The notes beneath the pieces are model-generated. The model ran no database searches and was not told where the DNA came from. It saw only the letters and a list, made by a program, of their open reading frames with translations. Below are positions 31,268-63,640 of a stretch of 64,000 nt of DNA, piece by piece. The DNA is taken from assembly GCA_963713825.1 (NCBI GenBank), contig CAVQNG010000003.1, positions 416,001 to 480,000 on the forward strand, in the 5' to 3' direction. Both the position numbers and the translations under genes were made by a program. Each line of letters begins with the position of its first letter. Positions within the stretch are counted from its first letter, which is position 1. The stretch comes from an uncultured Acidobacteriota bacterium (GTDB lineage Bacteria > Acidobacteriota > Thermoanaerobaculia > Multivoradales > JAHEKO01).

Positions 31268-31372
31268 AACTCTCACTGCAGGGGCGGCCCTTGCGGCCGC
31301 CCCACAGCGAGAGGGGACAAGCCCCTCCCCCCGCAGAACTCGTTCAAGAAATGGTGGACTGGGTGGGGTCGA
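31268..31372 (+). repeat. Composite intergenic module, copy 1 (REP hairpin plus a tRNA-3'-like stub)
   Basis: ACTCTC..TGCAGGGGCGGCCCTTGCGGCCGCCC..CAAGCCCCTCCCCCCGCA, then TGGTGGACTGGGTGGGGTCGA. Confidence 0.75.
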
Positions 31373-31381
31373 TATACCCGT

Positions 31382-32314
31382 CTACTTGAATGGATCCAGT
31401 CTTCGAACCACTTTCATGTCGATCCAGTAGACGTCTCTACTGCCGCCCGTATCGCTGTTGAAGAAGAGGTACTTTCCATCCGAAGTGATGAACGGGCGAT
31501 TCTCAGAGCCGGGTGTGTTCACACCATCACCGAGGTTTATCGAGGGAGACCATTGGCCATCTCGATCCTTGAACGACACATAGAGATCATCCATGCCCAG
31601 TCCACTCGGCTTCTTCGAACAGAACACCAGCATGCTCCCGTCCGGCGAGATTGCAGGGTCCCATTCATCCCACTGCGTGTTGATGTTCTCCCCCAGACGC
31701 ATGGGCTCGGAATAGGCGCCGTTCCTGAACTGAGCAGAGAGGATCTCAGAAAGGCCATCATCACCTTCGAACCTCCTGAAGAAATAGAGGGTCTTGTCAT
31801 TCGAAACAGACGGATATGAATCGTGAAGAGGGGAGTTGACAGGAGCTCCCAGATGTACCGGTTCTGACCAAGAACCGTTGCTGTTCTCAACCAGCCAGAT
31901 GTCACTCGACTCGTTCTCTTCATCTCCTCCGCCCAGGGGTCTGTTCGAGGTGAAGTACAGCCTTGCTTCGTTGGGAGCGAAGGTGAAATCTCCGAAACCG
32001 AACCCCTCCATGAAGAACGGTGCAATTTCGGGTCTCGTCCATTCGCCGTTCTTCCTCTCCAGGACAAAGACCCTGGTGTCTTCCCTCCAGTGCCTCCTGA
32101 ACACAGCATGGTCGCCATCATGAGAGAAAGTCAGGCATCCTTCAGGGGCATCTGTGGAGATGATCACCGGAGCAAACAGCTCTGGAGTCATCCCCGGCGG
32201 TTTCTGGCCGAGATAGTCCCCTTTGAGCACTGGGACATCTTCATCGGTCGAGACCGCTGTCAAGGCAGGGAATGACAGAAACATGAGACTCAAACAAATG
32301 GCCCCTTGCTTCAT
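31382..32314 (-). CDS. Exported PD40/TolB-like beta-propeller protein
   Basis: YLGQKPPGMTPELFAP, PAISPDGSMLVF, PFITSDGKYLFF; paralog of 7761-8702. Confidence 0.85.
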   Translation of the reverse strand: MKQGAICLSLMFLSFPALTAVSTDEDVPVLKGDYLGQKPPGMTPELFAPVIISTDAPEGCLTFSHDGDHAVFRRHWREDTRVFVLERKNGEWTRPEIAPFFMEGFGFGDFTFAPNEARLYFTSNRPLGGGDEENESSDIWLVENSNGSWSEPVHLGAPVNSPLHDSYPSVSNDKTLYFFRRFEGDDGLSEILSAQFRNGAYSEPMRLGENINTQWDEWDPAISPDGSMLVFCSKKPSGLGMDDLYVSFKDRDGQWSPSINLGDGVNTPGSENRPFITSDGKYLFFNSDTGGSRDVYWIDMKVVRRLDPFK

Positions 32315-32526
32315 GATGATTCACCTCCTGATTTCGAATTGATGGCTGGCTAGGCTTCTGTCACACGTCGAGACATCTCCCTCTCTACCAAACGCACATC
32401 TGACGGCTGAGGTTTCGCAGACATGGCCACGAGCAGTTGGATCGTCGCCGGTTTTGAAGACCAGTAAGGGTATTCGGATCGCTATGGGGCTAGAATCACG
32501 CCAAGACCAGGAGCTCAATAGCCGCC

Positions 32527-34398
32527 ATGAGCAAATCCGACCGCCAATTGGGGATGCACCGCGACATCACTCGCCGGGACTTCATCCACGGCGCAGGGAT
32601 CGCGGCACTGAGTCTCAGCCTTCCTTCCGCAGTGGCTGGAGGGCAACCGTCAACCGCACCCGCCGACACGGCTGGACGCTACTACCCACCCACGCTCACC
32701 GGCCTGCGCGGCTCACACCCCGGCTCGTTCGAGGTGGCGCATGGCCTGGCTCTCGAACACAAGGACTTCGACACCGGCGAGGACCTCGGAGAGAAATACG
32801 ATCTCGTGGTCGTCGGCGGGGGTCTCAGCGGCCTCGCCGCCGCCTACTTCTACCGCCAGCGGTTCGGCGGGGACTCCCGCATCCTCATCCTGGAGAACCA
32901 CGACGAGTTCGGCGGTCACGCCACGCGCAACGAGTTCCACCAGGGCGGGCCGATGCGCCTGGTTTGGGGCGGTGACTTCAATCTCGAATACTCGGCGTTC
33001 AGCGAGCAGGGCAATGCCCTCCTGACCGAGTTGGGGGTCGATATAGACCGACTCCTGGAGCACAACGACTTCAACTACGGCACCGACGGAAAGCTCGGCC
33101 CGGCCATCTACTTCGATGCCGAGACCTATGGGAGCGACGTACTGATTCCGGGGTTCATTCCACGTTGGGGAGACTTCGCGAGCATCCTCGGCAAGCTCGA
33201 CGCCGTGCCGCTCAGCAAGGAGTCACGCGACTCCCTGAAGCGGTTCTACTCCGCCAGAACCGACGTGCTCGAGGGCCGTAGTCCGGAAGAGCGTCGGCAG
33301 TTTCTCCGACAGATCAGCTATATCGACTTCATCCGCCAGTACGGCGGCCTCACCGAGGAAGCGGCCGAGATCTTCTTCAACGCCACTCACGGCTATTGGG
33401 GCGTCGGTGCGGACAGCTTGTCGGTCGCCGAGTGCGAGGGCGCCGGACTCCCGATGGCACATCTGCTCGGCGGCGAGCCCGACTCGTCGGGCAGCGTGGG
33501 CGGCGAAGTAGTCCACTTTCCCGACGGCACTGCCTCCCTTGCCAGATTGCTGGTCCGTGCACTGATTCCAGCGGTTGCCGATGGCCAGGGCATGGACGAC
33601 ATCGTGACCGCGGCTTTCGACTATTCACAGCTCGATCGCTCCGAATCGCCGATCCGTTTGCGGCTCAATGCGACAGTAACCACTGTCCACGAGAATGACG
33701 GCGCCGTCCGCGTGAGCTTCGTCCGCGATGGAAAGACGGCGAACGTGATAGGGCGCAGCTGTGTTCTGGCCTGCTACCACTCGATGATCCCCTACCTGTG
33801 CCCTCAGCTTCCGGCAGCCCAGCGTGAGGCGCTCGCCTATCAGGTCAGGCGGCCGCTCCTGCTGACCAATGTCCTGATCCGTGACACCAAGGCCGCCGAC
33901 AAACTCGGCATCTCGGGCGCCTACTGCCCGGGGCGCCTGCATGGCGCGACCTGGCTCGTCAAGGGCATCGAAGTCGGCGAGTACCGACACGACTGGGAAG
34001 ATCCCGGGCCGGCGGTGATGCAGTTCTGGGGCTCGGTCGCACCGGTGAAGAGAGGGGTAGACATCCGCCGTCAACATCGATCATCGCGGATGCGCATGCT
34101 GACCATGGATTTCGAGGACTTCGAGAGAGAAGTCCGAACCGTGCTGGACGGCATGTTGGGCCCGGCGGGCTTCAGCGCGGCCGACGACATCCTCGCTATC
34201 ACCGTCAATCGCTGGCCGCATGGCTACTCCTACGACTACCTCGACCTGTGGGACCCAGAGTGGCCCCCGGGGGAGGCGCCGCACGAGATCGCAAGGAAAC
34301 CGTTCGGGAGCATCACCTTCGCCAACTCCGACGCCGGCGCCTACGCCATGACGGAGGTCGCCATCGACCAGGCTTGGCGGGCGGTCAACGACCTGTAG
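32527..34398 (+). CDS. Tat-exported FAD oxidoreductase, spermidine dehydrogenase (SpdH)-like
   Basis: ITRRDFIHG Tat motif, YYPPTLTGLRGSHPGSFEVAH, VVGGGLSG, AITVNRWPHGY, FANSD, AIDQAWRAV. Confidence 0.85.
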   Translation: MSKSDRQLGMHRDITRRDFIHGAGIAALSLSLPSAVAGGQPSTAPADTAGRYYPPTLTGLRGSHPGSFEVAHGLALEHKDFDTGEDLGEKYDLVVVGGGLSGLAAAYFYRQRFGGDSRILILENHDEFGGHATRNEFHQGGPMRLVWGGDFNLEYSAFSEQGNALLTELGVDIDRLLEHNDFNYGTDGKLGPAIYFDAETYGSDVLIPGFIPRWGDFASILGKLDAVPLSKESRDSLKRFYSARTDVLEGRSPEERRQFLRQISYIDFIRQYGGLTEEAAEIFFNATHGYWGVGADSLSVAECEGAGLPMAHLLGGEPDSSGSVGGEVVHFPDGTASLARLLVRALIPAVADGQGMDDIVTAAFDYSQLDRSESPIRLRLNATVTTVHENDGAVRVSFVRDGKTANVIGRSCVLACYHSMIPYLCPQLPAAQREALAYQVRRPLLLTNVLIRDTKAADKLGISGAYCPGRLHGATWLVKGIEVGEYRHDWEDPGPAVMQFWGSVAPVKRGVDIRRQHRSSRMRMLTMDFEDFEREVRTVLDGMLGPAGFSAADDILAITVNRWPHGYSYDYLDLWDPEWPPGEAPHEIARKPFGSITFANSDAGAYAMTEVAIDQAWRAVNDL

Positions 34399-34434
34399 AA
34401 CTGACGCCTCCAGGACCAAGAGAGGACCACCGAA

Positions 34435-35385
34435 ATGATCACACGACGCGACTACCTGAAGTATTCAGTGTTGACCGCTGCGGCCGCCACTCTTCCTCCA
34501 CAGCTCACTCGTGCGGCGCATCCTGAGGATCGGATCTTCAGGACCATTCCAAAGACAGGCGAGCGATTGCCAATTGTCGGTCTGGGTAGTTCTGCGACGT
34601 TTCGCTCGATTGCGGCAAGCGACGACGTCAGTGCTCTGTACGAGGTGTTGAGAACATTCTTTGACAACGGCGGTACCGTCTTCGATACGGCCCCCGCTTA
34701 TGGTGCTTCAGAAGAAGTTGCCGGCAGGATGATTCAGGAGTTGGGCGCGACCGAGAAAGTGTTCTGGGCGACGAAAGTGAACGTCGCGCCTCGTGGCGGC
34801 GGGGCCGCCGATCCGGAGGCCGCAAGAGCTCAGATCGAGCGCTCGTTCAAGCACAGTGGCAAGGATCCGATGGACCTTGTTCAGGTACACCAGCTGCGCG
34901 ATGTGCCAACCCAGCTAGGCATTCTCAAGGATCTCAAGGAGGCGGGTCGTCTGCGCTATATCGGTGTCACCTATACCGGCGCCGAGCGTTATCCAGACCT
35001 GGCGAAAGTCATGCGCGAAGAACCGATCGATTTCATAGGCGTTGATTACGCTGTAGACAATCGGCAAGCCGCTGAAGTGATTCTGCCGCTGGCGATCGAC
35101 CGCGGTATTGGTGTGCTCGTCTATCTTCCATTCGGACGAACTCGATTGTGGGCCAGAGTGGCCGGCCAGGAACTGCCGTCGTGGGCTGCCGATTTCGGCG
35201 CCGAGTCCTGGGCACAGCTGTTTATCAAATTTGCCGGAGCGCATCCGGCCGTCACTACAGTGACACCAGCAACGAGCAAAGCGACTCATATGCTCGACAA
35301 TCTTGGCGCGGGTGTGGGCGAGCTGCCGGACGAAGCCATGCAGAAACGGATGGCAGACTTCGTTGACGCGCTGCCCTCGGCGTGA
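34435..35385 (+). CDS. Aldo/keto reductase with twin-arginine signal
   Basis: MITRRDYLK, IVGLGS, FDTAPAYG, ATKV, LVQVH, RYIGVT. Confidence 0.9.
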   Translation: MITRRDYLKYSVLTAAAATLPPQLTRAAHPEDRIFRTIPKTGERLPIVGLGSSATFRSIAASDDVSALYEVLRTFFDNGGTVFDTAPAYGASEEVAGRMIQELGATEKVFWATKVNVAPRGGGAADPEAARAQIERSFKHSGKDPMDLVQVHQLRDVPTQLGILKDLKEAGRLRYIGVTYTGAERYPDLAKVMREEPIDFIGVDYAVDNRQAAEVILPLAIDRGIGVLVYLPFGRTRLWARVAGQELPSWAADFGAESWAQLFIKFAGAHPAVTTVTPATSKATHMLDNLGAGVGELPDEAMQKRMADFVDALPSA

Positions 35386-35535
35386 CAGAGCCTGCTGAAC
35401 AAGGACGACACTGTCATTCCCGGCTACCTTCTCTCACATCTGGAAAGTCCGGGGACTCACCCCGAAGAGAGAAGCTAGTGCTTGCTGCTCCACCAGCAGC
35501 TTGACGCGCTGTGGTCCTTGGGGAAACATGACTCG

Positions 35536-36609
35536 ATGCGTCTCGAAGATCTTGGTTGGGATCCGGTCTGGGAGTATCACGCTGCGGAAGCAGGCGGCCC
35601 GAAGCGTGTACCGGGTCGGGTGGCGACGGTGGATCGGGGGCGTGTTGTGGTGCTGACCGACGAGGGCGCCATTCCGGCTTCTTGGCACTTCCCCGTTTCG
35701 GTGCTCGGGGAGTCGGCAGGAGTCATGCCGGCGGTGGGCGATTGGGCCATGATCACGAATGCCGGCGAGGTGCGCACCCTCGAGACCCTGCTACCTCGAC
35801 GAAGTCTGCTGGCCAGGGGAATTCAAGGCGGTGCTCGCGTGGCTCAACCTCTGGCAGCCAACGTGGACCTGGTCATGGTGGTCACGGGTCTGGATGGCGA
35901 TTTCAGCTTGCGGCGCATCGAGCGTTATCTGGCGCTTGCCCGCAGCGGTGGCGTTCGAGCCCTCGTGGTGCTCAGCAAACTGGACCTGATCGACGATCCC
36001 GATGAAGCGATTCGGCAGGCCCGGAAGGCTACTCCTGGGTTGGATGTAGTCACGGTCAGCTCCGTAACCGGGGACGGATTGATAGAGCTCGAGAACGAGG
36101 TCAAGCCAGGGCAGACCGTGGTTCTTGTGGGTTCGTCGGGAGTGGGCAAGTCGACCTTGATCAATCGTCTGCTAGGCGAAGAGCGTCAGCGCACCGGGGC
36201 GGTTCGGGAGTCCGACGACCGGGGACGTCATGTGACCACGCGTCGCGAACTCCTCCAACTTCCCGACGGTGGACTGGTCATCGATACTCCTGGTCTGCGT
36301 GAGGTAGGGCTGCTGGCGAGTGAGGAGGCCGTACTGGAGGTCTTCCCAGAGATTGCTGCTCTTTCTGAGCAGTGCCGCTTCATGGATTGCAGTCACGTCG
36401 AAGAGCCTGATTGCGCCGTTCGGGATGCCGTCGACAAGGGCGAACTCGACGCCGATCGACTGGCTGGTTTCCACCGTCTTGTCCGGGAGCAGGCCAGCGC
36501 TACCCGCCGTGCCACCGAACACGAGCGGCGAGCTCACGAGCGAGCCCTGACAAGCCACTATCGTAAGACCCTCCGCGCCTCACTTCGATTCAAGGGTCGA
36601 GAGAACTAG
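35536..36609 (+). CDS. rsgA: Ribosome small subunit-dependent GTPase A
   Basis: AVGDW, AANVD, SKLD, GSSGVGKSTLIN, GRHVTT, DTPGLRE, CRFMDCSHVEEPDC zinc site. Confidence 0.95.
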   Translation: MRLEDLGWDPVWEYHAAEAGGPKRVPGRVATVDRGRVVVLTDEGAIPASWHFPVSVLGESAGVMPAVGDWAMITNAGEVRTLETLLPRRSLLARGIQGGARVAQPLAANVDLVMVVTGLDGDFSLRRIERYLALARSGGVRALVVLSKLDLIDDPDEAIRQARKATPGLDVVTVSSVTGDGLIELENEVKPGQTVVLVGSSGVGKSTLINRLLGEERQRTGAVRESDDRGRHVTTRRELLQLPDGGLVIDTPGLREVGLLASEEAVLEVFPEIAALSEQCRFMDCSHVEEPDCAVRDAVDKGELDADRLAGFHRLVREQASATRRATEHERRAHERALTSHYRKTLRASLRFKGREN

Positions 36610-36665: not shown

Positions 36666-36895
36666 ACCTCCGGTTTCCTACAACTGACAACACTCAACAA
36701 CACCTGACCACTGAGGCTGCCCCCAACGCTGGACCGAGGGCTGTGAGAGATTCCCGGTCTAGATGGCCTCATTGTCAAGCATGGCGTCGGTGACGGTGAT
36801 CGCCTGGATAACTCGCCAGAACGCACCAGACGTGGATCATCTCAATCGGTGAGATGCGGTCTGGTGGACCAAGAGCGGACAACGGGCATTGGGTC
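36666..36895 (+). repeat. Composite intergenic module, copy 2 (periodic boxes and end box)
   Basis: ACCTCCGGTTTCCTACAACTGACAACACTCAACAACACCTGACCAC matches 61407-61452; GGACCAAGAGCGGACAACGGGCATTGGGT at 36866-36894. Confidence 0.8.
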
Positions 36896-37907: not shown

Positions 37908-37968
37908 TGGCGGAGGGGGTGGGATTCGAACCCACGGACCGCGTGAACGGTCGCCGGTTCTCAAGACC
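37908..37968 (-). pseudogene. 3' fragment of tRNA-Ser (anticodon arm to CCA), att-site-like
   Basis: Minus strand GGTCTTGAGAACCGGCGACCGTTCACGCGGTCCGTGGGTTCGAATCCCACCCCCTCCGCCA: long variable arm, T arm and GCCA end; no 5' acceptor strand upstream. Confidence 0.9.
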
Positions 37969-38025
37969 GTTGCACGCATTCCAAACCAGACAAAAGCAGA
38001 CTAATCAGAACCAAGAGAGACCAAC

Positions 38026-38341: not shown

Positions 38342-38522
38342 GGACCACGGACCTTGAGTCCAAGCTGCTCAATAGGGAGAAAGTGGCGAAGGGGCAGGCG
38401 CGGCGATGCAGTGAAGCCGACTCCTGATGTAGAGGAGCCCCTTGTGGGCTCCCTCGAGAGGGGGCAGGCCCCTGCCCTACAACTTGAATGTCACAACACC
38501 TGACAACGAAGCGACGGGCTTC
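38342..38522 (+). repeat. Composite intergenic module, copy 3
   Basis: GGACCACGGACCTTGAGT..CTCAATAGGGAGAAAG, GGGGCAGGCGCGG.GATGCAGTG, REP at 38428-38481, GTCACAACACCTGACAACGAAGCGACGGGCTT. Confidence 0.9.
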
Positions 38523-38546
38523 TTGACCGTCAATTGCCCATACAAC

Positions 38547-38670: not shown

Positions 38671-38685
38671 CGGTACGGGACTTGC
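38671..38685 (+). promoter_or_regulatory. sigma54 promoter candidate
   Basis: CGGTACGGGACTTGC has GG-N10-GC spacing, 53 bp before ATG 38739. Confidence 0.65.
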
Positions 38686-38738
38686 CCTCTCCTTGGGGGA
38701 CGACGGAACACTTCCATCGAACCCAAAGGAGAGAAACG

Positions 38739-39371
38739 ATGCGGAAGAAGATCGCCTGCCTCGCTACGATCGCGCTCACGAGCACCTCACTCTCGGCTCA
38801 GGACACCGGGTGGCTTGCACGTGCCGTCGGAGGCTGGGATAGCCTCCTCAGCCCAGTTGGTGTCTCGGAGAGCGCGGGCGACTTCAACTACCACTTCACC
38901 AACGACCTCCACGTGGGTCTCGAAGGTGAGTACCGCTTCAATCGGCGCCTCGGACTGGAGCTCGCCATTCACCAGAGTCGGCCCGACATAGTGGTCGGTG
39001 CAGAGATTGGCGACGATTTCGTCAGCCTGAGAGATAGCATCACGTACCGGCCCCTGACGGTGGGACTCGACGTGCATCTGACCCCGGATCGTCGCGCCGA
39101 TTTCACTCTTACTCCTCTCATCGGCCACGCCTTCTTCAGCGATCTCGACTTCGAGACGTCAAGTGTGACGCCCCGATTCAACAGCGGCAGCGATCTGATG
39201 TGGGGCGGCGCAGCCGCCGTGGATGTCGGCATCGGCGATGGGCCCTGGACCGTTTCGTTTGCTCTTCGGTACCTCGATGCCACACTCGAGGCAGTTGACG
39301 ACGGAGGCGTCGTGACGAGTCTCGATCTCTCTCCCTGGACAACCACCGTGGGGGTGGGTTATCGCTTCTGA
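38739..39371 (+). CDS. OmpW-like outer-membrane beta-barrel
   Basis: Signal peptide, GLEGEYRFNRRLGLEL, alternating beta strands, C-terminal PWTTTVGVGYRF. Confidence 0.85.
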   Translation: MRKKIACLATIALTSTSLSAQDTGWLARAVGGWDSLLSPVGVSESAGDFNYHFTNDLHVGLEGEYRFNRRLGLELAIHQSRPDIVVGAEIGDDFVSLRDSITYRPLTVGLDVHLTPDRRADFTLTPLIGHAFFSDLDFETSSVTPRFNSGSDLMWGGAAAVDVGIGDGPWTVSFALRYLDATLEAVDDGGVVTSLDLSPWTTTVGVGYRF

Positions 39372-39402
39372 GACCCGGCGCTGGCCGGCCCTGGCCCTCC
39401 AG

Positions 39403-40797
39403 TTGAGTTGGGCGATCGTTCTTCTACTCGGCCTGCTGGCTGCCGCGCCGGCCGGCGCAGTCGAGCCAACCCCTGAGATTGCCAGTGGTCGTTTGCCCAG
39501 CTTCTTCATAGAGACGATCATCATCGAGGACTCCACCAGGTTCTCACCTGATCTCATCCTTGCGGAGTCACGGCTCGTGGAGGGCCAGGAGTACAGCGAA
39601 CGGGAACTACGCGACGCCTTGTTCCGCATTGTTCGGCTGCCGCTCATTCTCGACGCAGAGTTCTCTCTGAGGCGAGGGACCCAGAGGGGGCGTTTTCAGC
39701 TCGTCATACAGGTCGATGAGGCTCGCCGTTGGTTCTTTGGGATGGAGGGATCAGCGATTCGATGGAGTCGTCCTGTCACGCTCTCCGGGATCTCGGCCGA
39801 GAACGTCGTCGAGAGCTTCTCCATTCTTGCCGGCCGTCGCTTCACCATCGGCCGCTACGGTGTCTTCTTCGCTGCGGTGGGAGGACAGGACGGATCTCTC
39901 AACCTGGGTTACAGCCACAATAATCTCTTCGGCCGGCGCATCCTGCTTCAGATCTCGGGAGCTTACAGCCGCTGTGGGCAAGCCCAAGTCTCTCCCCCCC
40001 TCGGCGATGAGGGAGATCAGGCATGTCGGGCCGAGATTCTAGACCTCGGCCTCGACCCGACCTTCAGTGCATGGGAGGCGGGCGAGGGAACCGCCCGAGC
40101 TCGGCTCAGCCTCGGTGTCCCCCTGAAAGGCAACCAGTCCATCCGTTTTGCCGGATCCTTCCTCGACACGGAGGGAGGCTTCCGCCGAGCCGTCTATCAG
40201 GATGATCCTGCACAGCTCGATTTCCTCCGCGATCGCACCGACTGGGAGCTGGCAGCCTCGTGGATACTCGACTCCCGCGACGACCCACTGTTCACCAGTG
40301 AGGGCCAGCGCTGGGAAGCAGGCCTCCAAGTCCGCTCGCTCGAGGCCGAAGTCGAGAGATGGGACTTCGAGAACTTGACGAGCTTCAAGACGGATCATGC
40401 GTCCCTGGAGGTCGGAGCACGGCTCGCCGGTTCGAAGTATTGGCCGCTGGGGCGCAAGGACGCGATCTGGGGTCGCCTCGACGCATTTCTCGGCCGCACC
40501 GATTTCTCCGGAGCTCTTACCGAGGATGACCGCATTCTCGAGGGCCAAGCGGATGTTTGGAGAGGTGGAGCCGCTTTTGGCTACGGCCGTTTTCTCCATC
40601 GGGTACGGACTGATGAGAAATGGCAGGAACTTCGCTGGGAGTCCGAGATCGAGGCCCTCTACTCCACCACCTCGCCCTCGTTCGACCTTCCCGAGAATCC
40701 GCTGGCCGGCTTTCGCGTCTCCAGCGGCCTGACCTGGCGCAGCAGCTGGGGGGTCTTCGGGCTCGAGCTCATCTACCAGGACCTGGGAGGAGACTGA
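39403..40797 (+). CDS. Omp85/BamA-TamA-like protein with one POTRA-like domain
   Basis: Signal peptide, IETIIIE..RLVEGQEYS..LVIQVDE, YSHNNLFGR, DSRDDPLFTSEG. Confidence 0.7.
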   Translation: MSWAIVLLLGLLAAAPAGAVEPTPEIASGRLPSFFIETIIIEDSTRFSPDLILAESRLVEGQEYSERELRDALFRIVRLPLILDAEFSLRRGTQRGRFQLVIQVDEARRWFFGMEGSAIRWSRPVTLSGISAENVVESFSILAGRRFTIGRYGVFFAAVGGQDGSLNLGYSHNNLFGRRILLQISGAYSRCGQAQVSPPLGDEGDQACRAEILDLGLDPTFSAWEAGEGTARARLSLGVPLKGNQSIRFAGSFLDTEGGFRRAVYQDDPAQLDFLRDRTDWELAASWILDSRDDPLFTSEGQRWEAGLQVRSLEAEVERWDFENLTSFKTDHASLEVGARLAGSKYWPLGRKDAIWGRLDAFLGRTDFSGALTEDDRILEGQADVWRGGAAFGYGRFLHRVRTDEKWQELRWESEIEALYSTTSPSFDLPENPLAGFRVSSGLTWRSSWGVFGLELIYQDLGGD

Positions 40798-52600: not shown

Positions 52601-52755
52601 GACTCACGGACATTGAGTGAACTCTCGGTGCAGGGCCGGCCCTCACGGCCGCCCGCGGGAGGGGGCAAGCCCCCTCCCCTTCATGCTGAAAGTCACATCA
52701 GCTGACCACTATGCGACGGCGCCTCTCGGGCAGAGGGGATTGTCGTGGTCGCCGC
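52601..52755 (+). repeat. Composite intergenic module, copy 6 (diverged)
   Basis: CACGGACATTGAGTGAACTCTCGGTG, REP, GTCACATCAGCTGACCACTATGCGACGG..CAGAGGGGATTGTCGTGGTCG. Confidence 0.85.
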
Positions 52756-53695: not shown

Positions 53696-53768
53696 TCACC
53701 GTGGAGATCGCTCGCTTCACGATCGAGAGCTGCCGGCCAGGGGCTCGTGGCCCAACCGGCGGGGTTCA

Positions 53769-55073: not shown

Positions 55074-55531
55074 GCGTCCCCCTCGAGGTCCTGTGCGGGC
55101 TCCTTGGACTTCTTCCAACCAGCCATCTCGGCATCGTGCTGAACGTAGTCCGTGGCATGTACGGCCGTAAGGAGCTGAACCGATGCCAACTTCTCGATGG
55201 GCACCACGGTGTGGTCGAGATTCGCTTCGACTTCCGCGGCCTTGTTCTCGAACATCGCTCTGCTGTCCAGCTTCTTGCCATAGGGAGCTTCCGGCTCGCC
55301 CAGATGAAGAGGAATGCCTTGCGCCGCGATAAATTCGCAAAGGTCCGAGTACTCTTCCTTCAACCTCTCGAGCGCTCCGTAACGCTCATCCACCGTCAGA
55401 AAGTCCGGGTAATCGGGCATGGAAGAGACGACCTCTCGAAACAGCTCTTCCCTGTTTACCTGTGGCTGGAGATCCGCGCAAGCACAGAGACTCCAACAGA
55501 TCCAAACCGCGACTGGCCCTCTCGCTCTCAT
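55070..55531 (-). CDS. Hypothetical protein, possible lipoprotein
   Basis: LCAC lipobox-like motif; ATGA overlap with the MFS gene. Start uncertain. Confidence 0.55.
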   Translation of the reverse strand: MRARGPVAVWICWSLCACADLQPQVNREELFREVVSSMPDYPDFLTVDERYGALERLKEEYSDLCEFIAAQGIPLHLGEPEAPYGKKLDSRAMFENKAAEVEANLDHTVVPIEKLASVQLLTAVHATDYVQHDAEMAGWKKSKEPAQDLEGDA

Positions 55532-55607: not shown

Positions 55608-55727
55608 TGGCCGAGGGGTGGAATTCGAGCACGGATGGGCAGGCCTGGGGGTGCAGTGAAGCCGACTCCTGATGTAGGGGAGCCCCTTGCGGGCTCCCTC
55701 GGGAGGGGGCAAGCCCCTCCCCTTGTA
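55608..55727 (+). repeat. Composite intergenic module, copy 7 (tRNA-Ser stub, insert, REP)
   Basis: TGGCCGAGGGGTGGAATTCG, then CACGGATGGGCAGGC..TGCAGTGAAGCCGACTCCTGAT, then GTAGGGGAGCCCCTTGCGGGCTCCC..GCAAGCCCCTCCCC. Confidence 0.85.
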
Positions 55728-55874
55728 TCTCTATCTCCTCAGAAGATAGAGAGCCCAGTGGTACGGAGGGCTCTCCTGGTCAAGAGGCAGCGGAGATCAG
55801 ACGCTGCTCCCTCCCGACGGCCGTAGAACCTGAGCGAGTAGATAAGCGCCCCCGCCGACGCCTCAGGGTCAAGC

Positions 55875-57143
55875 TCAGGGCTCCAGCACGATCCGCCCGG
55901 CCTGCATCACAAAACGGACCTCGCGGAGACGGGAGATATCCTCAGAGGGGTCGCCGTCGACGGCCACCAAGTCGGCTTGCAGACCGGGCAGCACGGAACC
56001 GATCTGCTCTTCGAGGTGCAAGATGCGTGCATTGACCGAGGTGGCAGCCCGGAGCGCTTCGAGCGGGCTCATTCCGTAGCTCACCATCAACTGCAGCTCG
56101 AGCCAGTTGTCACCATGTCGAAAGACTCCTGCATCGCTCCCGGCGCAGAGGATCACCCCAGCATCGAGCGCAGCCCGAAAACTCTCTCGACTGGCGCGCA
56201 TCCTCTCGGGCTCCTCATCGACCTCCGCGTCCCAGCCCTCATAGCGAGACACGGCCTCCGTCGCAGCCAGTGTAGGGCAGAGGGCGACCCCCTTTTCCGC
56301 CATGAGACGAAAGACCTCGGGAGTTCCACCATCGCCGTGCTCGATGGTCTCGACGCCCGCCAGCGTGGCTCTGCGCATGCCTTCGGGCGTGCTCGCATGA
56401 GCTACCACGGGCCTGCCACTGCTTCGGGCAGTCTCCACTACGAGCTCTAGCTCGGCCTGCGAGAAGGTGGGAAAACTCGCGCCCTCGGGTCCCCAGCGAT
56501 AGTCGGCATAGATCTTGATCCAGTCGGCACCCTTGCCGATCTGATCACGAACGACCCGGATCAGCGCATCGACGCCGTCGGCTGGTTCAGCGCCCAAGGG
56601 AACCTCGAAAGAGGGCGCGAAGCCCTTGGGACCATAACTGCCGGTTGCGACGATGGCTCGTGTCGCTACCAGAAACCGGGGACCGTCGATGACGCCCTTC
56701 TCGATGGCCCGCTTGAGACCCACGTCCGCATATCCTGCCCCTTCGGTTCCGAGATCGCGAACGGTGGTGAAGCCGGCCAGCAGTGTGTCGCGGGCATGAA
56801 CCGTGGCACGGGCGACACGCTCGGCCTCGGATTCCTTGAGCACCTGATCGTTCCAGGAGGTCTCGTTGTAGGGGTGGAGAAAGAGATGAGCGTGCCCCTC
56901 GATCAATCCAGGCAAGAGAGTCGTGCCCGGCAACTCGACGATCCGGGCATCCGTTGGAGGACGAATCTCTGCCATCGGTCCCACGCCCTCGATCCGCTCC
57001 CCGCGAACTAGCACCGCCCAGCCAGCGTGAACCTCCTGACCATCGAACACCCTTGCCGGGCGCAGAAGGTAGGTGTCCTCGAACTGAGCAGTAGCCAGAC
57101 CGGCTTCGAAGAGTAGCGCCAGCAGTAGGAGGAGTCGCGTCAT
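55875..57143 (-). CDS. Metal-dependent amidohydrolase (Xaa-Pro dipeptidase-like) with signal peptide
   Basis: PGLIEGHAH, GFTTVRDLG, WIKIY, VVAHA, IEHG, AGSDAG. Confidence 0.92.
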   Translation of the reverse strand: MTRLLLLLALLFEAGLATAQFEDTYLLRPARVFDGQEVHAGWAVLVRGERIEGVGPMAEIRPPTDARIVELPGTTLLPGLIEGHAHLFLHPYNETSWNDQVLKESEAERVARATVHARDTLLAGFTTVRDLGTEGAGYADVGLKRAIEKGVIDGPRFLVATRAIVATGSYGPKGFAPSFEVPLGAEPADGVDALIRVVRDQIGKGADWIKIYADYRWGPEGASFPTFSQAELELVVETARSSGRPVVAHASTPEGMRRATLAGVETIEHGDGGTPEVFRLMAEKGVALCPTLAATEAVSRYEGWDAEVDEEPERMRASRESFRAALDAGVILCAGSDAGVFRHGDNWLELQLMVSYGMSPLEALRAATSVNARILHLEEQIGSVLPGLQADLVAVDGDPSEDISRLREVRFVMQAGRIVLEP

Positions 57144-61083: not shown

Positions 61084-61198
61084 AGGACAGAGCCGCAATC
61101 CGAGGCTGCTCGCCCGAGTCGACCAGACCGCCAGGAATCTCGAGTAGCCCAAGGTGTGCCGCAGCACCCCCCAAAGTCCACAGAAATGCACCACCCGT

Positions 61199-61544
61199 GG
61201 ACCACACGGGCATTGAGTGGACTCTCGGTGTAGGGGCGTCCCTTGCGGGCACCCGCAGGAGGGGGCAAGCCACTCCCCTACAAAGTGAATTTCTGGAATG
61301 GCGGAGAGGAAGGGATTCGTACACGGAGGGGCAGGCGCGGGGATGCAGTGTCGGCGACCATCGGGAGGCAACCCTTGGACCGCGTGAACGGTCGCCGGTT
61401 TTCAACACCTCCGGTTCCCTACTACTGACAACACTCCACAGCAACTGACAACTAAGCGACGGGGCTTCTTGGGCAGAGGGGATTGTTGTGGTCGATGCCG
61501 AGGGTTGTGGTTGGTTGTGGCTTCGGGGACCAGGAGTGGACCAC
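61199..61544 (+). repeat. Composite intergenic module, copy 8 (most complete)
   Basis: GGACCAC-GGGCATTGAGT, REP, tRNA-Ser fragment, CTGACAAC boxes, GATTGTTGTGGTCGATGC, GGACCAGGAGTGGACCAC; GGACCAC occurs at both ends. Confidence 0.92.
61299..61409 (-). pseudogene. tRNA-Ser 3' fragment with a 50-bp insertion in the T loop
   Basis: Removing 61320-61369 gives GGTGTTGAAAACCGGCGACCGTTCACGCGGTCCAAGGGTTCGAATCCCTTCCTCTCCGCCA on the minus strand. Confidence 0.88.
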
Positions 61545-61599
61545 GACCTGTACAATGAGGTGACCTTCTCGACCACGTTGACCCGGGACGAGCCGACTC

Positions 61600-61686
61600 A
61601 TGATCGGCAAGACGCTTTCTCACTTCAAGATTACCGCCAAGCTCGTCAAAGGCGGGGTGGGGGAGGCGTATCGGGCCGAGGACATA
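61600..61686 (+). pseudogene. Ser/Thr kinase N-terminal stub
   Basis: MIGKTLSHFKITAKLVKGGVGEAYRAED versus [28 protein letters not shown] at 15409; stops a few codons later. Confidence 0.88.
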
Positions 61687-61715
61687 GCCGTTCTCACCGC
61701 CCAGTGATTTCTCTA

Positions 61716-63347
61716 GTGCTTCGCATCGCCTATCTGCTCCCCACAGCCTTGATCTTCCTGGCCTGTTCGGCTGAGCCCGCTGGCGAAGGCACTCCACTGC
61801 AAAGCAAGCCGTCCCGCGCCACCTCCATTGCCGAACTGCAGGCGCTCGTTTCCACCGACTGGGTGTCGGTGTACGACCCCGACCGCGCTTGGAGCGGCTA
61901 CACCCTGGATCTCTACAATCGCAGAATCCCAATCCTGTTCGATATGAACGGTCGCATTGCCCATGCCTGGCCAGAAACCCGAGTCAAAGCGAGAGCGCGG
62001 CTACTTCCAAACGGATCTCTACTCGCTATCGGTCTCGACCGAACGATCGAAGAGTATGACTGGGATGGGAAGCTCGTCTGGCAGGCCAAGGTGGAAGGGA
62101 AAGTTCCGCATCACGATGTCGGCCGCCTCGGTAACGGCAATACGGTCGTCATCATCGCGACCAAGGGCGTCCCTACCGACGACATCGTCGAGTTCGACCG
62201 GCAGGGCAAGGTCGTTTGGGAATGGAAGGCCGCCGAGCATCTCTCCTTCTACTGGACCGATCGGGAGATCGATCGCTCGGACATCACCCACATCAACTCG
62301 GTAAAGGAGCTCCCGAACAATCGCTGGTGGGACGCCGGTGACGAACGTTTCCGGCCTGGAAACTTGCTGATCAGCGCAAGAAATCTCGATGCCGTCTTCA
62401 TCATCGACAAGGCGTCGAAAGAGATCGTCTGGTCCTACGACATTCGTCTCGACCGCCAGCACGAAGCTGTGATGACCGAATCGGGGCTTCCCGGCGAGGG
62501 TAACATCCTGATCTTCAACAACGGTCTCCAAGACAAGTATCGAATGCGCAGTAGCACGGTCATCGAGATCGACCCTACGACCCTTGCGACCCTCTGGGAG
62601 TATCGGTCAGACACATTCTTCTCGCAGACCGGTGGTGTCGAACAAGCTCTCCCGAACGGCAACGTGATGATCACCTCTAGCCTCGGAGGGCGGATCTTCG
62701 AGGTGACCCGGGATGGAGACATGGTGTGGGAATGGACACCTGCCTACAAACCGATGAGGCCGAACCGCTACAGTTACGATTTCTGTCCGCAGCTCGAGTC
62801 GATGGGCCGACCCGAGGAGCTGTGGGTCGAGGACGATCCAGACTATCGACATGTCGATCGGCCTCTTTATCTGTTCGCAAGAAAGCCGGCCCTTCATACA
62901 ATCCCGATCCAAGGCGAGGACCGCAAGGTCTTGAAAGACTCCTCGGCCTGCAGAGATGTCCTTATTCCTGCCGAGGCCTCTCTTCGGCTGACGTTCTTCC
63001 TCGATACGGACGAAATCGAGCACGCCGGACTGGGCGAAACCTCCGGGCGCTTCAGGGCGAGTCTGCGCCCGTCGGGGAGTTCCGAGGAAATCGAGATTCT
63101 GAATGAAGTTGTTTCGCAACCGACCAGCAAGCCTAGACATCGTACCGTCAACCTGGAGGACTGGGCCTACAAGAGAGCGACACTGTGTATCGAGGCCGAT
63201 CGATACGGTCGGTGGCAAAACCCAGACATCCGGACAGCCCGCGCGCGAGTCGACACCGCTAGCTCGAACAAGCTGAGGATAGAGATGACCGAGGAAGAGC
63301 TCCGCGTTCGCCTCGAACACCTCGAAGCCCTCGGTTATGTCGAGTGA
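61716..63347 (+). CDS. Arylsulfotransferase (ASST)-like beta-propeller lipoprotein
   Basis: FLAC lipobox, PHHD, THINSV, LLISARN, QHEA, LPNGNVMIT. GTG 61716 chosen because the ORF-track start runs through the repeat. Confidence 0.8.
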   Translation: MLRIAYLLPTALIFLACSAEPAGEGTPLQSKPSRATSIAELQALVSTDWVSVYDPDRAWSGYTLDLYNRRIPILFDMNGRIAHAWPETRVKARARLLPNGSLLAIGLDRTIEEYDWDGKLVWQAKVEGKVPHHDVGRLGNGNTVVIIATKGVPTDDIVEFDRQGKVVWEWKAAEHLSFYWTDREIDRSDITHINSVKELPNNRWWDAGDERFRPGNLLISARNLDAVFIIDKASKEIVWSYDIRLDRQHEAVMTESGLPGEGNILIFNNGLQDKYRMRSSTVIEIDPTTLATLWEYRSDTFFSQTGGVEQALPNGNVMITSSLGGRIFEVTRDGDMVWEWTPAYKPMRPNRYSYDFCPQLESMGRPEELWVEDDPDYRHVDRPLYLFARKPALHTIPIQGEDRKVLKDSSACRDVLIPAEASLRLTFFLDTDEIEHAGLGETSGRFRASLRPSGSSEEIEILNEVVSQPTSKPRHRTVNLEDWAYKRATLCIEADRYGRWQNPDIRTARARVDTASSNKLRIEMTEEELRVRLEHLEALGYVE

Positions 63348-63369
63348 CCTGGAACTCCCCCCGCATCGC

Positions 63370-63420
63370 AACCTCGATGTCGTTGATGGACTCCAGAGCG
63401 CGCCGTAGCGTGCCTCGAGC
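63370..63420 (-). pseudogene. Stub of a LytTR-type receiver N-terminus
   Basis: ARGTLRRALESINDIEV versus ARGTLRRALDSMKDVEV in the gene at 1319-2104. Confidence 0.7.
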
Positions 63421-63485
63421 GACCTGCCCTTCACTCAAGAGAAAAAACCTATGAGTCCGACTGGAGATCAAGACCGAAACCCTGT

Positions 63486-63640
63486 GGAACTCTCTGCCAT
63501 TGGCAGGCCCTCCCCTGCGTCCTCCAGTTCACAACACCTGACAACGAAGCGACGGGGCTTCACTGCCAGGCGTGATTGTTGTGGTCGATGCTCAAGAGTG
63601 GTGGTTAGTTGCGGTCAAATGGACCGATAGTGAACCAAGA
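63486..63640 (+). repeat. Composite intergenic module, copy 9
   Basis: GAACTCTC, REP 3' half, CACAACACCTGACAACGAAGCGACGGGGCTT, GATTGTTGTGGTCGATGC, GGACCGATAGTGAACCA. Confidence 0.9.

What the first reader, a model, noticed from the sequence alone, without database searches (positions are those of the whole stretch)
31268..63640. Nine co-oriented composite att-like modules partition 32 kb into gene blocks (candidate cassette/accretion system)
Seen: copies start at about 31268, 36666, 38342, 45033, 51418, 52601, 55608, 61199 and 63486, all intergenic and on the same strand. They draw on one parts list in largely conserved order: GGACCAC-GGCATTGAGT, REP hairpin, reverse tRNA 3' fragment, CACAACACCTGACAACGAAGCGACGGGGCTT (seven copies), GATTGTTGTGGTCGATGC, GGACCA-N4/5-GGACCA. 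They bound unrelated blocks such as a single methyltransferase, the sigma54 unit and the TetR-ABC unit. Established: tyrosine integrases that target tRNA genes leave 3' fragments next to arm-type repeats, and tandem integration gives direct orientation. Inference: an integrase-free array built by repeated site-specific events in trans, like an integron in function but without attC sites.
Basis: partly seen in the sequence, partly recalled or inferred. Interest (0 to 1): 0.85.

Follow-up and report, generated by a model that had tools for sequence, protein, structure and literature searches.

The report
Integrase-free gene-cassette array at tRNA-Ser
Next to a serine tRNA gene, this sediment acidobacterium carries a 58-kb row of small gene packets separated by copies of the tRNA's tail and conserved recombination-site arms; none of them encodes a recombinase, and related species hold different packets at the same spot.

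Summary
It runs from window 26979 to an intact minus-strand tRNA-Ser(UGA), 21.6 kb past the window's end (G000:C3:442979-501606).

Each full junction reads: P-type arm, then the 61-nt 3' part of tRNA-Ser, then a 138-nt P'-type arm. This is the junction expected between integrative elements stacked in tandem at a tRNA gene. Only the GC-rich hairpin part is an ordinary REP scattered across the genome.

I found no tyrosine or serine recombinase in the array. None lies on module-bearing contigs or regions of eight related genomes, and none turned up among the cargo proteins I scanned.

Block content and order differ among congeners, with breakpoints in the modules. One 4.9-kb block is 97-100% identical between two species whose core flanks are 77-82% identical.

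Best reading (0.6): a tandem-accretion, CIME-like "additive island" of natively integrase-less cassettes, moved by an integrase supplied in trans and not yet identified. It is not an integron.

This is a new variant of a known kind. Earlier notes of this scan describe similar integrase-free tRNA arrays on other DNA.

The parts
26979..27015 (+). Left border of the array. A solo site (GGTCCA...GGACC...TGGACCAC boxes) sits between the core HMG-CoA-synthase-like gene and the first block.
   Evidence: Homology of the katG block with G004 starts exactly at the GGACC-N5-TGGACCAC half-site. In G003 and G004 a module stands at this position.
27154..31192 (+). Block 1: two CoA-transferase subunits and catalase-peroxidase (katG). 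This block is flanked by modules in G003 and G004.
   Evidence: Pfam. Synteny: 94.6% to G004:C74, 88-94% to G003:C50.
31260..31380 (+). This is not a module.
   Evidence: Only the REP part matches, and REP occurs outside the array on both strands.
31382..36609 (.). Cargo: PD40 repeat protein (-), FAD/NAD oxidoreductase, aldo-keto reductase, RsgA-like GTPase (+).
   Evidence: Pfam. RsgA alone is shared with G003 and G004, where it has other neighbours.
36666..36715 (+). Remnant of the P' arm (B1 part), fused to the last bases of the tRNA fragment.
   Evidence: (D11).
37908..37969 (+). Displaced tRNA-Ser 3' fragment (positions 1-62 of the reverse-strand gene, 92%). It is followed by an alternative right-hand arm, also seen at C3:491574 and in L096.
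38342..38525 (+). Module: end of the P arm, hairpin, 50-nt unit, REP, first half of the P' arm.
38682..44876 (.). Cargo: OMP beta-barrel protein, two unknown proteins, sigma54-dependent response regulator, unknown 265-aa protein (-).
   Evidence: Pfam. PHROGs one search found nothing.
45033..45320 (+). Module: P arm end, hairpin, REP, P' arm (B1, start of B2).
45488..51282 (.). Cargo: TetR regulator, unknown protein, ABC-2 permease fused to an M1 peptidase domain, ABC ATPase, DinB-family protein (-).
   Evidence: Pfam.
51405..51550 (+). Module: complete P-arm box set (GGTCCAC...GGACC...TGGACCAC), REP, B1 part.
51579..52541 (+). Single-gene cargo: SAM-dependent methyltransferase.
   Evidence: Pfam.
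52601..52755 (+). Module: hairpin start, REP, diverged P' arm.
   Evidence: (D1-D4).
52928..55340 (.). Cargo: unknown 255-aa protein and an MFS_3 transporter (-). The MFS gene recurs at 92-97% identity in G002, G003, G004 and three metagenome contigs, each time with other neighbours.
   Evidence: Pfam.
55608..55875 (+). Degenerate junction: tRNA acceptor-like piece, 50-nt unit, REP, and a roughly 190-nt segment shared with contig C26.
55875..61083 (.). Cargo: amidohydrolase, DJ-1/PfpI, DUF1295, NUDIX (all -), BLUF sensor, DoxX (+).
   Evidence: Pfam.
61176..61575 (+). Most complete module in the window: P-arm boxes, REP, tRNA acceptor/T part, 50-nt insert in the T loop, tRNA variable-arm/anticodon part, whole P' arm ending in GGACC-N5-TGGACCAC.
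61488..63347 (+). Cargo: arylsulfotransferase-like beta-propeller protein whose first residues resemble a Ser/Thr-kinase N-terminus.
   Evidence: Pfam (D7).
63486..63640 (+). Module: REP end and P' arm (B1 28-57, B2 13-76). The array goes on beyond the window.

Best explanation
The region is a tandem-accretion hot spot, an 'additive' genomic island, at the 3' side of tRNA-Ser(UGA) in a Thermoanaerobaculia (Acidobacteriota) genome.

Each unit is a small gene packet with no recombinase. In its circular form it would carry one long attP-like site: a P arm (boxes GGTCCAC / TGGACCAC x2 plus a hairpin), the 61-nt 3' part of tRNA-Ser from the CCA end to the anticodon stem, and a 138-nt P' arm (two CCACAAC boxes, two inverted GTTGTGG boxes, and a terminal GGACC-N5-TGGACCAC).

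A tyrosine-type integrase that crosses over in the anticodon stem-loop inserts each unit into the intact tRNA or into a resident tRNA fragment. This integrase is supplied in trans and is not identified. Every internal junction therefore reads P arm, tRNA fragment, P' arm, all in one orientation.

The junctions later decay in three ways: invasion by REP hairpins, a 50-nt insert in the T loop, and deletions between the GGACC-N5-TGGACCAC boxes of the two arms, which leave 'solo' sites. Units or groups of units are exchanged between species.

What is shown: the anatomy, the clustering, the fixed tRNA boundary, the lack of recombinase genes, and block turnover with recent exchange.

What is inferred: the integrase, the circular intermediate, and the order of events.
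For: 1. An intact tRNA-Ser(tga) lies at the right end, on the minus strand. All tRNA fragments are co-oriented with it.

2. The fragment always ends after CAAGACC in the anticodon stem, whatever follows it. Four partners are seen: the P' arm, an alternative arm (window 37969, C3:491574, L096), cargo directly (L096), or the rest of the intact tRNA. The same boundary is found at two secondary sites. One is G001 at a locus that is empty in G000, where the empty site matches the tRNA's anticodon region at 13 of 17 positions by my count. The other is C1:146140-146235.

3. Uninterrupted 61-nt fragments followed by the full P' arm occur in G001 and in 11 of 21 metagenome contigs (12 copies in all). 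There are 22 distinct full P' arms of 136-138 nt (one of them 108 nt), with 88% mean column identity.

4. The arm parts occur only in the array.

5. At one chromosomal locus, between the HMG-CoA-synthase-like gene and tRNA-Ser, G000 holds 58.6 kb and G003 about 14 kb. G004 holds at least 17 kb next to the tRNA; its outer flank was not recovered. Content and order differ between them.

6. The arm halves stay with their cargo. The GGACC-N5-TGGACCAC half stays with the right-hand cargo (katG block and S46 block). The P arm stays with the left-hand cargo.

7. The S46-GNAT-TPR block is 97-100% identical between G000 and G004 from the half-site to the P arm, while core flanks are 77-82% identical. 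The MFS gene is 92-97% identical in 6 other sources.

8. The same kind of tRNA-fragment array with a diverged P' arm lies at tRNA-Ser(tga) in two other genera of the family.
Against: - No integrase that could act on these sites was found. PF00589 has 5 matches in G000 and none lies in C3:440-512 kb. None lies on module-bearing contigs or regions of G001-G005, G009, G048 or G051.
- The only arm-binding (PF13356) integrase, on contig C35, has different boxes (GGTTACCAC x2) and an unknown target.
- No integrase remnant turned up among the 57 array and flank proteins (Pfam). None was found among the 20 cargo proteins I scanned, out of 157 ORFs called in relatives and metagenome contigs.
- No excised circle was seen (one search was not interpretable).
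- The solo sites recombine at the GGACC boxes, not in the tRNA core. The simple model explains this only by secondary deletion.
- Some block breakpoints are not at any module, for example just 3' of the MFS gene at C3:469736-469760.
- The arms are conserved across three genera in arrays that never hold an integrase. A purely transient helper element does not easily explain that.
Confidence: 0.6

Rival explanations
1. Exchange by homologous recombination. The array was seeded long ago by site-specific events. Today the 250-350-bp modules (82-94% alike) serve only as portable homology: incoming DNA recombines through RecA between two modules and adds, swaps or deletes blocks. No site-specific recombinase exists any more.
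For: - No recombinase was found in 9 genomes.
- The modules are long and similar enough for homologous recombination.
- Many junctions are partial or decayed, and some breakpoints lie outside the modules.
- Identity of the S46 block decays gradually over the P arm and REP, from 0.95 to 0.7, rather than stopping sharply on the right side.
Against: - The left boundary of the same 99% tract is sharp, at the GGACC half-site, with unrelated sequence to its left.
- The tRNA fragment ends at one fixed base with at least four different partners and at two secondary sites.
- The protein-box-like motifs of the arms are the best conserved part across genera, while the middle of the arm is hypervariable. 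This pattern suggests selection for protein binding.
Confidence: 0.2
2. A dedicated cassette platform, an analogue of an integron. A host-encoded or unrecognised recombinase, conserved in this family, captures and shuffles cassettes at tRNA-Ser. It uses the GGACC-N5-TGGACCAC boxes (and perhaps the GGTCCA-N6-TGGACC inverted repeat) as a second crossover site.
For: - Arrays are found at the same tRNA in three genera, always without an integrase, and the terminal boxes are conserved.
- Solo sites join the left half of a P arm precisely to the right half of a P' arm.
- Cassettes can be as small as about 0.7-1 kb (L091, L087, L096).
- Cargo is of the adaptive, accessory kind.
Against: - No candidate enzyme was found. 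The only recombinases seen in all nine genomes are the Xer-type hits: two per genome in most, one in the 84%-complete G002.
- Flanking unknown proteins gave no family match.
- Genes lie on both strands and in multi-gene units, so there is no common promoter logic.
- The solo sites can be secondary deletions.
Confidence: 0.12
3. A true integron or CALIN: the CCACAAC...GTTGTGG inverted repeat of the P' arm is an attC site recombined by an integron integrase.
For: - The inverted repeat spans about 57 nt with AAC and GTT at its ends.
- The genome holds a 70-aa C-terminal remnant of an IntI-like integrase at C3:1156479-1156691. Its likeness to IntI C-termini is from recall.
Against: - TIGR02249 is below its cut-off everywhere in the genome (best 95 bits against 265).
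- The remnant lies 655 kb away from the array.
- Conserved sequence continues about 55 nt past the would-be R' box and about 100-200 nt before R''.
- There is no covariation in the stem (covariation term -0.24), and the 3' half of the inner stem is hypervariable without compensating changes.
- Blocks hold several genes on both strands.
Confidence: 0.03
4. An ordinary REP or MITE family that happens to be dense here.
For: The GC-rich hairpin part is a genuine REP with copies on both strands all over the genome: 44 short places outside the array, and 6 outside against 2 inside at E<=1e-3.
Against: All the other parts (P arm, tRNA fragment junction, P' arm) occur only in this one 58-kb stretch, all on one strand. 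They mark the block breakpoints between genomes.
Confidence: 0.02

Closest known systems
Tandem accretion of integrative elements with cis-mobilizable elements (CIMEs). Source: review PMC5704250, passages read, which cites Pavlovic et al. 2004 and Bellanger et al. 2011 (seen only as references).
   Same: Units are bounded by att sites and have no integration or transfer genes. They are stacked in direct orientation at the 3' end of a target gene. Junctions are hybrid att sites, and mobilisation by another element's integrase is expected.
   Different: CIMEs are described as decayed ICEs or IMEs, usually one or two per site. Here at least 16 intervals of 0.4-9.7 kb (and cassettes of about 0.7 kb in metagenomes) show no remnant of integrase or transfer genes. 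No helper was found in any of the 9 genomes. The host is an uncultured Acidobacteriota lineage, not a Firmicute.
Additive flexible genomic islands at tRNA genes (Alteromonas; PMC4898812, passages read).
   Same: A tRNA hot spot holds variable numbers of cassettes, with a partial tRNA direct repeat downstream of cassettes. Nearly identical cassettes occur in divergent species whose cores have drifted apart.
   Different: The passages I read describe no conserved long-armed junction module and do not state that the cassettes lack integrases. Here every junction carries the same module of about 250-350 bp.
Tycheposon islands of Prochlorococcus (bioRxiv 10.1101/2020.12.28.424599, passages read).
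   Same: Islands lie next to tRNA genes (tRNA-Ser TGA appears among the labelled sites in a figure legend). Elements sit back to back, separated by a partial tRNA, and older partial tRNAs are scattered through the island. Cargo is adaptive.
   Different: Tycheposons carry their own tyrosine recombinase and replication genes, and their islands contain fragmented integrases. Neither was found here.
Integrons and CALINs
   Same: In function: an ordered, co-oriented row of exchangeable accessory-gene units without mobility genes of their own, relying on one recombinase in trans.
   Different: There is no IntI, no attC-type folded site and no attI/Pc logic. The site is a tRNA-derived core with long arms. 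Units are often multi-gene and lie on both strands.

Membership tests
tRNA-targeting integrative elements in tandem (accretion / CIME array) | An intact target tRNA gene at one end of the array | tested here: met
   tRNA-Ser(tga) at L008:1517-1606 (-), which is C3:501517-501606.
tRNA-targeting integrative elements in tandem (accretion / CIME array) | Direct repeats of the tRNA 3' segment, co-oriented with the gene, at every junction | tested here: met
   At least 8 tRNA-derived fragments in the array, all on +.
tRNA-targeting integrative elements in tandem (accretion / CIME array) | A fixed crossover boundary inside the tRNA (anticodon stem-loop class) | tested here: met
   The fragment ends after CAAGACC with four different right-hand partners and at two secondary sites.
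tRNA-targeting integrative elements in tandem (accretion / CIME array) | A tyrosine (or serine) integrase in at least one unit, or next to the tRNA | tested here: not met
   PF00589, TIGR02249 and PF00239 are absent from C3:440-512 kb. They are absent from module contigs or regions of 8 relatives.
CIME (cis-mobilizable element) | The unit keeps attL and attR but has no integration or transfer genes | tested here: met
   Arms lie on both sides of the blocks. No recombinase or transfer domains in 57 proteins, nor in 20 proteins of relatives.
CIME (cis-mobilizable element) | Origin by decay of an ICE or IME (remnants of integrase or conjugation genes) | tested here: not met
   No such remnant in any block examined.
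CIME (cis-mobilizable element) | Excision or mobilisation by a co-resident element's integrase | tested here: inconclusive
   Only Logan contigs could be laid. Their joints connect paralogous modules and cannot show circles.
Integron | An integron integrase (IntI) next to the array | tested here: not met
   TIGR02249: best match 95 bits against a cut-off of 265, and that match is a 70-aa C-terminal remnant 655 kb away.
Integron | attC sites: imperfect hairpins with R''/L''/L'/R' boxes at the 3' end of each cassette, crossover in R' | tested here: inconclusive
   An inverted repeat with AAC and GTT exists, but there is no covariation and conserved sequence extends well beyond it. No attC model was available.
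Integron | Mostly single, promoterless, co-oriented ORFs | tested here: not met
   Genes lie on both strands, and blocks hold up to 6 genes.
REP / MITE | Copies scattered over the genome in both orientations | tested here: not met
   This holds only for the hairpin part. The arms and the tRNA junction are confined to one 58-kb stretch, all on +.
Tycheposon | The element carries its own tyrosine recombinase plus a replication module | tested here: not met
   None found. The definition is taken from passages of 10.1101/2020.12.28.424599.
Additive flexible genomic island | The same chromosomal hot spot, different cassette sets in relatives, and cassettes more alike than the core genome | tested here: met
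   Cassettes are 91-99% identical to G004, whose core flanks are 77-82% identical. For G003 the difference is smaller: cassettes 88-97%, flanks 83-87%.

The most novel reading that the evidence does not exclude
A family of Thermoanaerobaculia maintains a chromosomal cassette-capture platform at tRNA-Ser(UGA) that works like an integron but was built independently. Its cassettes are natively free of recombinase genes and carry a complete attP-like site of about 330 bp. They are moved by a dedicated recombinase that is host-encoded or of an unrecognised family. That enzyme binds the GGACC-N5-TGGACCAC boxes and can cross over both in the tRNA anticodon stem and at the boxes. Together with the similar arrays noted elsewhere in this scan, this would be one instance of a widespread, undescribed class of tRNA-anchored cassette systems in uncultured prokaryotes.
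Probability: 0.15. Interest if true: 0.85.

Novelty: new variant of a known kind. Interest (0 to 1): 0.55.

Why it matters
Integrons are the textbook way in which bacteria stockpile and shuffle single accessory genes without giving each gene its own mobility machinery.

This array shows the same outcome reached through the tRNA-att route. There are dozens of different accessory genes: transporters, beta-lactamase-fold hydrolases, methyltransferases, phosphotransferases, regulators and peroxidase. All are packaged as integrase-less units with a shared, long att site. They are stacked at one tRNA and exchanged between species of abundant sediment Acidobacteriota.

If the recombinase can be found, it would make testable how flexible 'additive' islands are filled in uncultured lineages that show few classical mobile elements. 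The conserved module is also a practical marker for fishing the cassette pool out of metagenomes: one exact 29-mer gave 21 contigs in a single scan.

Tried and rejected
1. Integron reading. The IntI model is below its cut-off. The alignment fold of 22 P' arms gave no covariation. Rejected as a membership claim.

2. Search for the integrase, all without a hit on the array or on module contigs:
- PF00589, PF00239 and PF13356 in the own genome.
- PF00589 in G001-G005, G009, G048 and G051.
- Pfam on 57 array and flank proteins and on 20 relatives' proteins.
- PHROGs on 10 unknown proteins.

I inspected the integrase contexts at C25:523198 (near tRNA-Lys and tRNA-Leu), C35 (boxes GGTTACCAC x2), G003:C173 (the same element as C35) and G004:C35 (next to tRNA-Lys). 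None relates to tRNA-Ser.

3. Helper phage or satellite. Four exact-pattern scans of the viral contigs gave either 0 hits (three scans) or 3 chance hits to the 18-mer with no other module part.

4. The 18-mer in the genome collection gave 42 hits. Four are contigs labelled Thermoanaerobaculia or Acidobacteriota, two of which I checked and found to carry the modules. I took the other 38 for chance hits on taxon and expected number, and did not inspect them.

5. Reads. Only Logan contigs of 4 runs were laid on L007:1-20000. All listed joints connect module paralogs or tRNA-Ser genes of other organisms. There is no evidence for or against circles, and uncovered parts were not interpreted.

6. Rfam gathering scan of window 26000-64000: 0 families.

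7. A crude regular expression for a canonical dif site found nothing, so the idea that the boxes are Xer sites stays untested.

8. Supplementary files of the papers were not available. Those of the tycheposon and Alteromonas papers may list integrase-less units that I could not see.

Full report
**Observation.**
- The 31-mer occurs 5 times at <=3 mismatches, all on the + strand. None of 100 shuffles gave a match.
- The 18-mer GATTGTTGTGGTCGATGC occurs 3 times, all on +.
- The repeat finder groups the copies into families.

I read the nine places and scored them against nine part queries cut from canonical copies. Six of them are true composite modules: 38342, 45033, 51418, 52601, 61199 and 63486. 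The copy at 36666 is a lone piece of one arm. The copy at 55608 is a degenerate junction without that arm. The copy at 31268 is only a GC-rich REP hairpin.

**Where it lies in the genome.** The window is G000:C3:416001-480000. I ran blastn of the nine places against all 5.42 Mb, which gave 60 merged places.
- The 16 composite places all lie in C3:447260-501989 and all are on +.
- The 44 others are short (at most 124 nt, plus one of 192 nt on C26). They lie on both strands and correspond to the REP part; the C26 place matches a different shared segment.
- At E<=1e-3 the P-arm box set (4 of 4), B1 (9 of 9) and B2 (6 of 6) occur only in the array, while REP occurs 2 times inside and 6 outside.
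- Exact words tell the same story. GATTGTTGTGGTC occurs 6 of 6 times inside. A 23-mer of the tRNA fragment occurs 6 of 6 times inside. TGGACCAC occurs 17 of 197 times inside about 1% of the genome, all 17 on +.

**Anatomy.** ARAGORN finds an intact tRNA-Ser(tga) on the minus strand at C3:501517-501606, the right end of the array. There is no tRNA in the window itself.

A full junction reads, on the + strand:
- a box set GGTCCAC-N-TGGACCAC-N-TGGACCAC with a short hairpin; this is also what lies directly 3' of the intact tRNA;
- the reverse-strand tRNA from its CCA end to the anticodon stem (61 nt);
- a 138-nt arm.

Twenty-two distinct full copies of that arm, from G000, five congeners and metagenome contigs, are 136-138 nt long (one is 108 nt) and share 88% mean column identity. 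The conserved features of the arm are two CCACAAC boxes, two inverted GTTGTGG boxes and the terminal GGACC-N5-TGGACCAC. A stretch of about 16 nt in the middle is hypervariable.

This is the junction expected between two elements integrated in tandem at a tRNA gene: the P arm of the left element, the core, then the P' arm of the right element.

Many G000 copies carry later additions. A REP hairpin sits between the P arm and the tRNA fragment. One or two 50-nt units are inserted in the T loop. Copies without the insert exist in G001 and in 11 of 21 metagenome contigs.

**The crossover position.** The tRNA fragment always ends after CAAGACC, in the 5' strand of the anticodon stem, whatever follows it. 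Four partners are seen: the 138-nt arm; a second kind of arm (window 37969, C3:491574, L096); cargo directly (L096); or the rest of the intact tRNA.

The same end is seen at two places away from the tRNA.
- In G001 an insertion ends with the fragment joined to a flank that is uninterrupted in G000 (C4, about 156.8 kb). The empty G000 site matches the tRNA's anticodon region at 13 of 17 positions by my count.
- The second place is C1:146140-146235.

A fixed boundary with many partners is the mark of site-specific recombination in the anticodon stem-loop.

**Solo sites.** Three places carry only the boxes: window 26979 (the left border), C3:481805 and C3:484217. At C3:481805 the left half matches the start of a P arm and the right half matches the end of a P' arm. 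The homology of the following block with G004 starts exactly at that right half. The same holds at the left border of the katG block.

These solo sites are deletions of the module's interior between the box pairs of the two arms. The evidence cannot say whether a recombinase or slippage made them.

**No recombinase.**
- PF00589 has five matches in G000: two Xer-like, one at C25:523198, one fragment at C3:1156518, and one on C35. None lies in C3:440-512 kb.
- The integron-integrase model stays below its cut-off everywhere.
- The single weak resolvase match is at C3:1339.
- Pfam on 57 distinct proteins from C3:440142-511673 shows ordinary accessory functions and no recombinase, transposase or transfer domain. 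The functions include CoA-transferase, katG, PD40, oxidoreductases, RsgA-like GTPase, CAAX protease, OMP, sigma54 regulator, TetR, ABC, M1 peptidase, DinB, methyltransferase, MFS, amidohydrolase, DJ-1, DUF1295, NUDIX, BLUF, DoxX, arylsulfotransferase-like, S46 peptidase, GNAT, TPR, hydrolases, a metallo-beta-lactamase-fold protein, a beta-lactamase-fold protein and a Vsr-like nuclease.
- Ten unknown proteins gave nothing in PHROGs.
- The 464-aa protein next to the tRNA is a secreted repeat protein, not an integrase.
- Genes lie on both strands.

**Relatives.**
- A 283-nt module query matches beyond its tRNA part in 5 of 5 congeners, with several co-oriented copies per contig. Many contigs break at a module. 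Among the other 35 genomes it matches in one (G009).
- The arm alone matches in 9 of 45 genomes of the family, in 3 of 20 genera.
- G051 and G048, from other genera, also carry co-oriented tRNA-Ser fragments upstream of their tRNA-Ser(tga). Their arms are diverged but the terminal boxes are kept.
- PF00589 matches in G001-G005, G009, G048 and G051 never fall on module-bearing contigs or regions.
- Record titles name the related contigs as Thermoanaerobaculia or Acidobacteriota MAGs.

**Block turnover.** I compared relatives' contigs with G000 by blastn.
- G004 reads: module, katG block (94.6%), module, RsgA (93.9%), arm, 5.3 kb absent from G000, module, S46-GNAT-TPR block (99.06%), P arm, tRNA-Ser.
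- G003 reads, from the tRNA: RsgA, modules, about 5 kb mostly absent from G000, katG block, module, MFS (96.7%), module, then the same core left flank as in G000 (87%).

So one chromosomal locus holds 58.6 kb in G000 and about 14 kb in G003, and G004 holds at least 17 kb next to the tRNA. Sets and orders differ.

The core flanks of G004 are 77-82% identical to G000. The S46 block is 97-100% identical over 4.9 kb, starting sharply at the box half-site and fading over the P arm. Blocks were therefore exchanged recently relative to the divergence of these species. The contrast is clear for G004 and weaker for G003, whose cassettes are 88-97% and flanks 83-87% identical.

One exact 29-mer spanning the tRNA-fragment/arm junction found 21 metagenome contigs.
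- Four are 99% identical to G000.
- The others carry other cargo or known cargo with new neighbours. Examples are L096 (GNAT between two tRNA fragments, then the FAD oxidoreductase) and L098.
- Inter-module distances go down to about 0.7-1 kb (L091, L087, L096).
- I called 157 ORFs of at least 100 aa in 35 loci of relatives and metagenomes and scanned 20 of them with Pfam. These were the ones of 247-572 aa with no or weak G000 match. None is a recombinase. They are permeases, methyltransferases, beta-lactamase-fold proteins, an APH-type phosphotransferase, GGDEF, a glycosyltransferase and others.

**Results against a clean picture.**
- Some breakpoints lie outside any module, for example just 3' of the MFS gene at C3:469736-469760 in five comparisons.
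- RsgA has three different right-hand junctions in three genomes.
- Many modules are partial.
- No helper element was found in the genomes or in viral contigs.
- The Logan contigs of four runs gave only joints between paralogous modules, so circles could not be tested.
- The fold of the arm alignment shows no covariation, which neither supports nor excludes a folded site.
- Rfam finds nothing in window 26000-64000.

**Explanation.** The anatomy, the fixed tRNA boundary and the turnover fit tandem accretion by a tRNA-directed integrase. The units lack any integrase of their own and must be moved in trans (confidence 0.6).

The main rival (0.2) is that the modules now act only as portable homology for RecA-dependent exchange. 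The gradual right-hand decay of identity and the absence of a recombinase favour this rival. The sharp left-hand boundaries and the conserved boxes argue against it.

A dedicated, host-encoded cassette platform is the boldest reading not excluded (0.12 as a rival; 0.15 for the somewhat wider novel case). The integron (0.03) and plain REP/MITE (0.02) readings are rejected on tested features.

**Comparison with the known.**
- Units that keep att sites but lack integration and transfer genes, stacked at a target gene, are CIMEs in tandem accretion (PMC5704250, passages read).
- tRNA hot spots with variable cassettes, partial tRNA repeats and near-identical cassettes in divergent species are the 'additive flexible genomic islands' of Alteromonas (PMC4898812, passages read).
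- Prochlorococcus islands with back-to-back elements separated by partial tRNAs are described for tycheposons, which do carry integrases (10.1101/2020.12.28.424599, passages read).

The present case differs in four ways: the number and small size of the units; the complete lack of integrase genes or remnants across nine genomes; the uniform long-armed junction module; and the host lineage.

My searches for 'integrase-less' with tRNA, tandem and genomic island and the two other literature searches listed no paper whose title or abstract start describes such an array. Supplements were closed.

Earlier notes of this scan describe similar integrase-free arrays at other tRNAs in other uncultured lineages. 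They are unchecked AI notes that agree with this reading. I did not test them.

**Verdict.** This is a new variant of a known kind. Interest 0.55.

Noticed in passing
G000:C3:1156479-1156691 (L001:1462-1674): A 70-aa open frame that is the C-terminal end of an integron-integrase-like tyrosine recombinase (TIGR02249 positions 261-315, 95 bits). The rest of the gene is missing. The VOC/glyoxalase-like gene just downstream (L001:2316-2810) is 83% identical in DNA to a gene lying beside a tRNA-Ser module in metagenome contig L085.
   Followed up: partly
G000:C35:1-1550; G003:C173 (L102): A P4-like integrase (448 aa, the only PF13356 arm-binding domain in the genome) is preceded by two direct GGTTACCAC boxes 12 bp apart, an architecture like the TGGACCAC pairs of the modules. 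The stretch of the gene that I could see in G003 reads the same as in G000. Its attachment site is unknown.
   Followed up: partly
window 61322-61371; C3:488611-488711, 491436-491536, 494705-494754: A 50-nt unit is inserted in the T loop of the displaced tRNA fragments, sometimes as two tandem copies. Its first 14 nt resemble the tRNA acceptor/T-stem. It also occurs alone at window 38390 and 55630. Its origin is unexplained.
   Followed up: partly
G000:C1:146140-146235: A further displaced tRNA-Ser fragment with a hairpin remnant, outside the array. It ends at the same CAAGACC position.
   Followed up: no
G001:C12 / G001:C165 (L031, L028) against G000:C4:156791-156814: In G001, module-bearing DNA (at least 10 kb) is inserted at a locus that is uninterrupted in G000. 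Its right junction joins the tRNA fragment to the flank at a site matching the anticodon region at 13 of 17 positions. The left junction is not clean, and an ORF that looks like an IS-element OrfA (my impression only, not tested) lies nearby.
   Followed up: partly
window 55680-55875 and G000:C26:22434-22625: A roughly 190-nt non-coding segment (a REP plus a hairpin-rich stretch) is shared between the degenerate junction at 55608 and a place on contig C26 downstream of a gene I did not scan (it looked like an alkaline-phosphatase or sulfatase type). This element is different from the att module.
   Followed up: no
window 61488-61700 and 15410-15493: The arylsulfotransferase-like ORF starts with about 30 residues typical of the N-terminus of the genome's many Ser/Thr kinases (83% DNA identity to window 15410-15493). 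In G004, G001 and G009 the P' arm is followed directly by full kinase genes. The arm's outer end may therefore come from, or serve as, a kinase gene leader.
   Followed up: no
G051:C2:1410600-1423100 (L106:7150-19400): The tRNA-Ser array of this other genus holds four tandem paralogs, about 2.7 kb each, that look like a kinase-PD40-type gene (not scanned with Pfam).
   Followed up: no
G000:C3:499830-501224 (L011:830-2224, -): The gene next to the intact tRNA encodes a 464-aa secreted protein built of about 9 repeats of a ~45-residue unit (FQVNSYTTG...FVVxW). It has no Pfam match.
   Followed up: no
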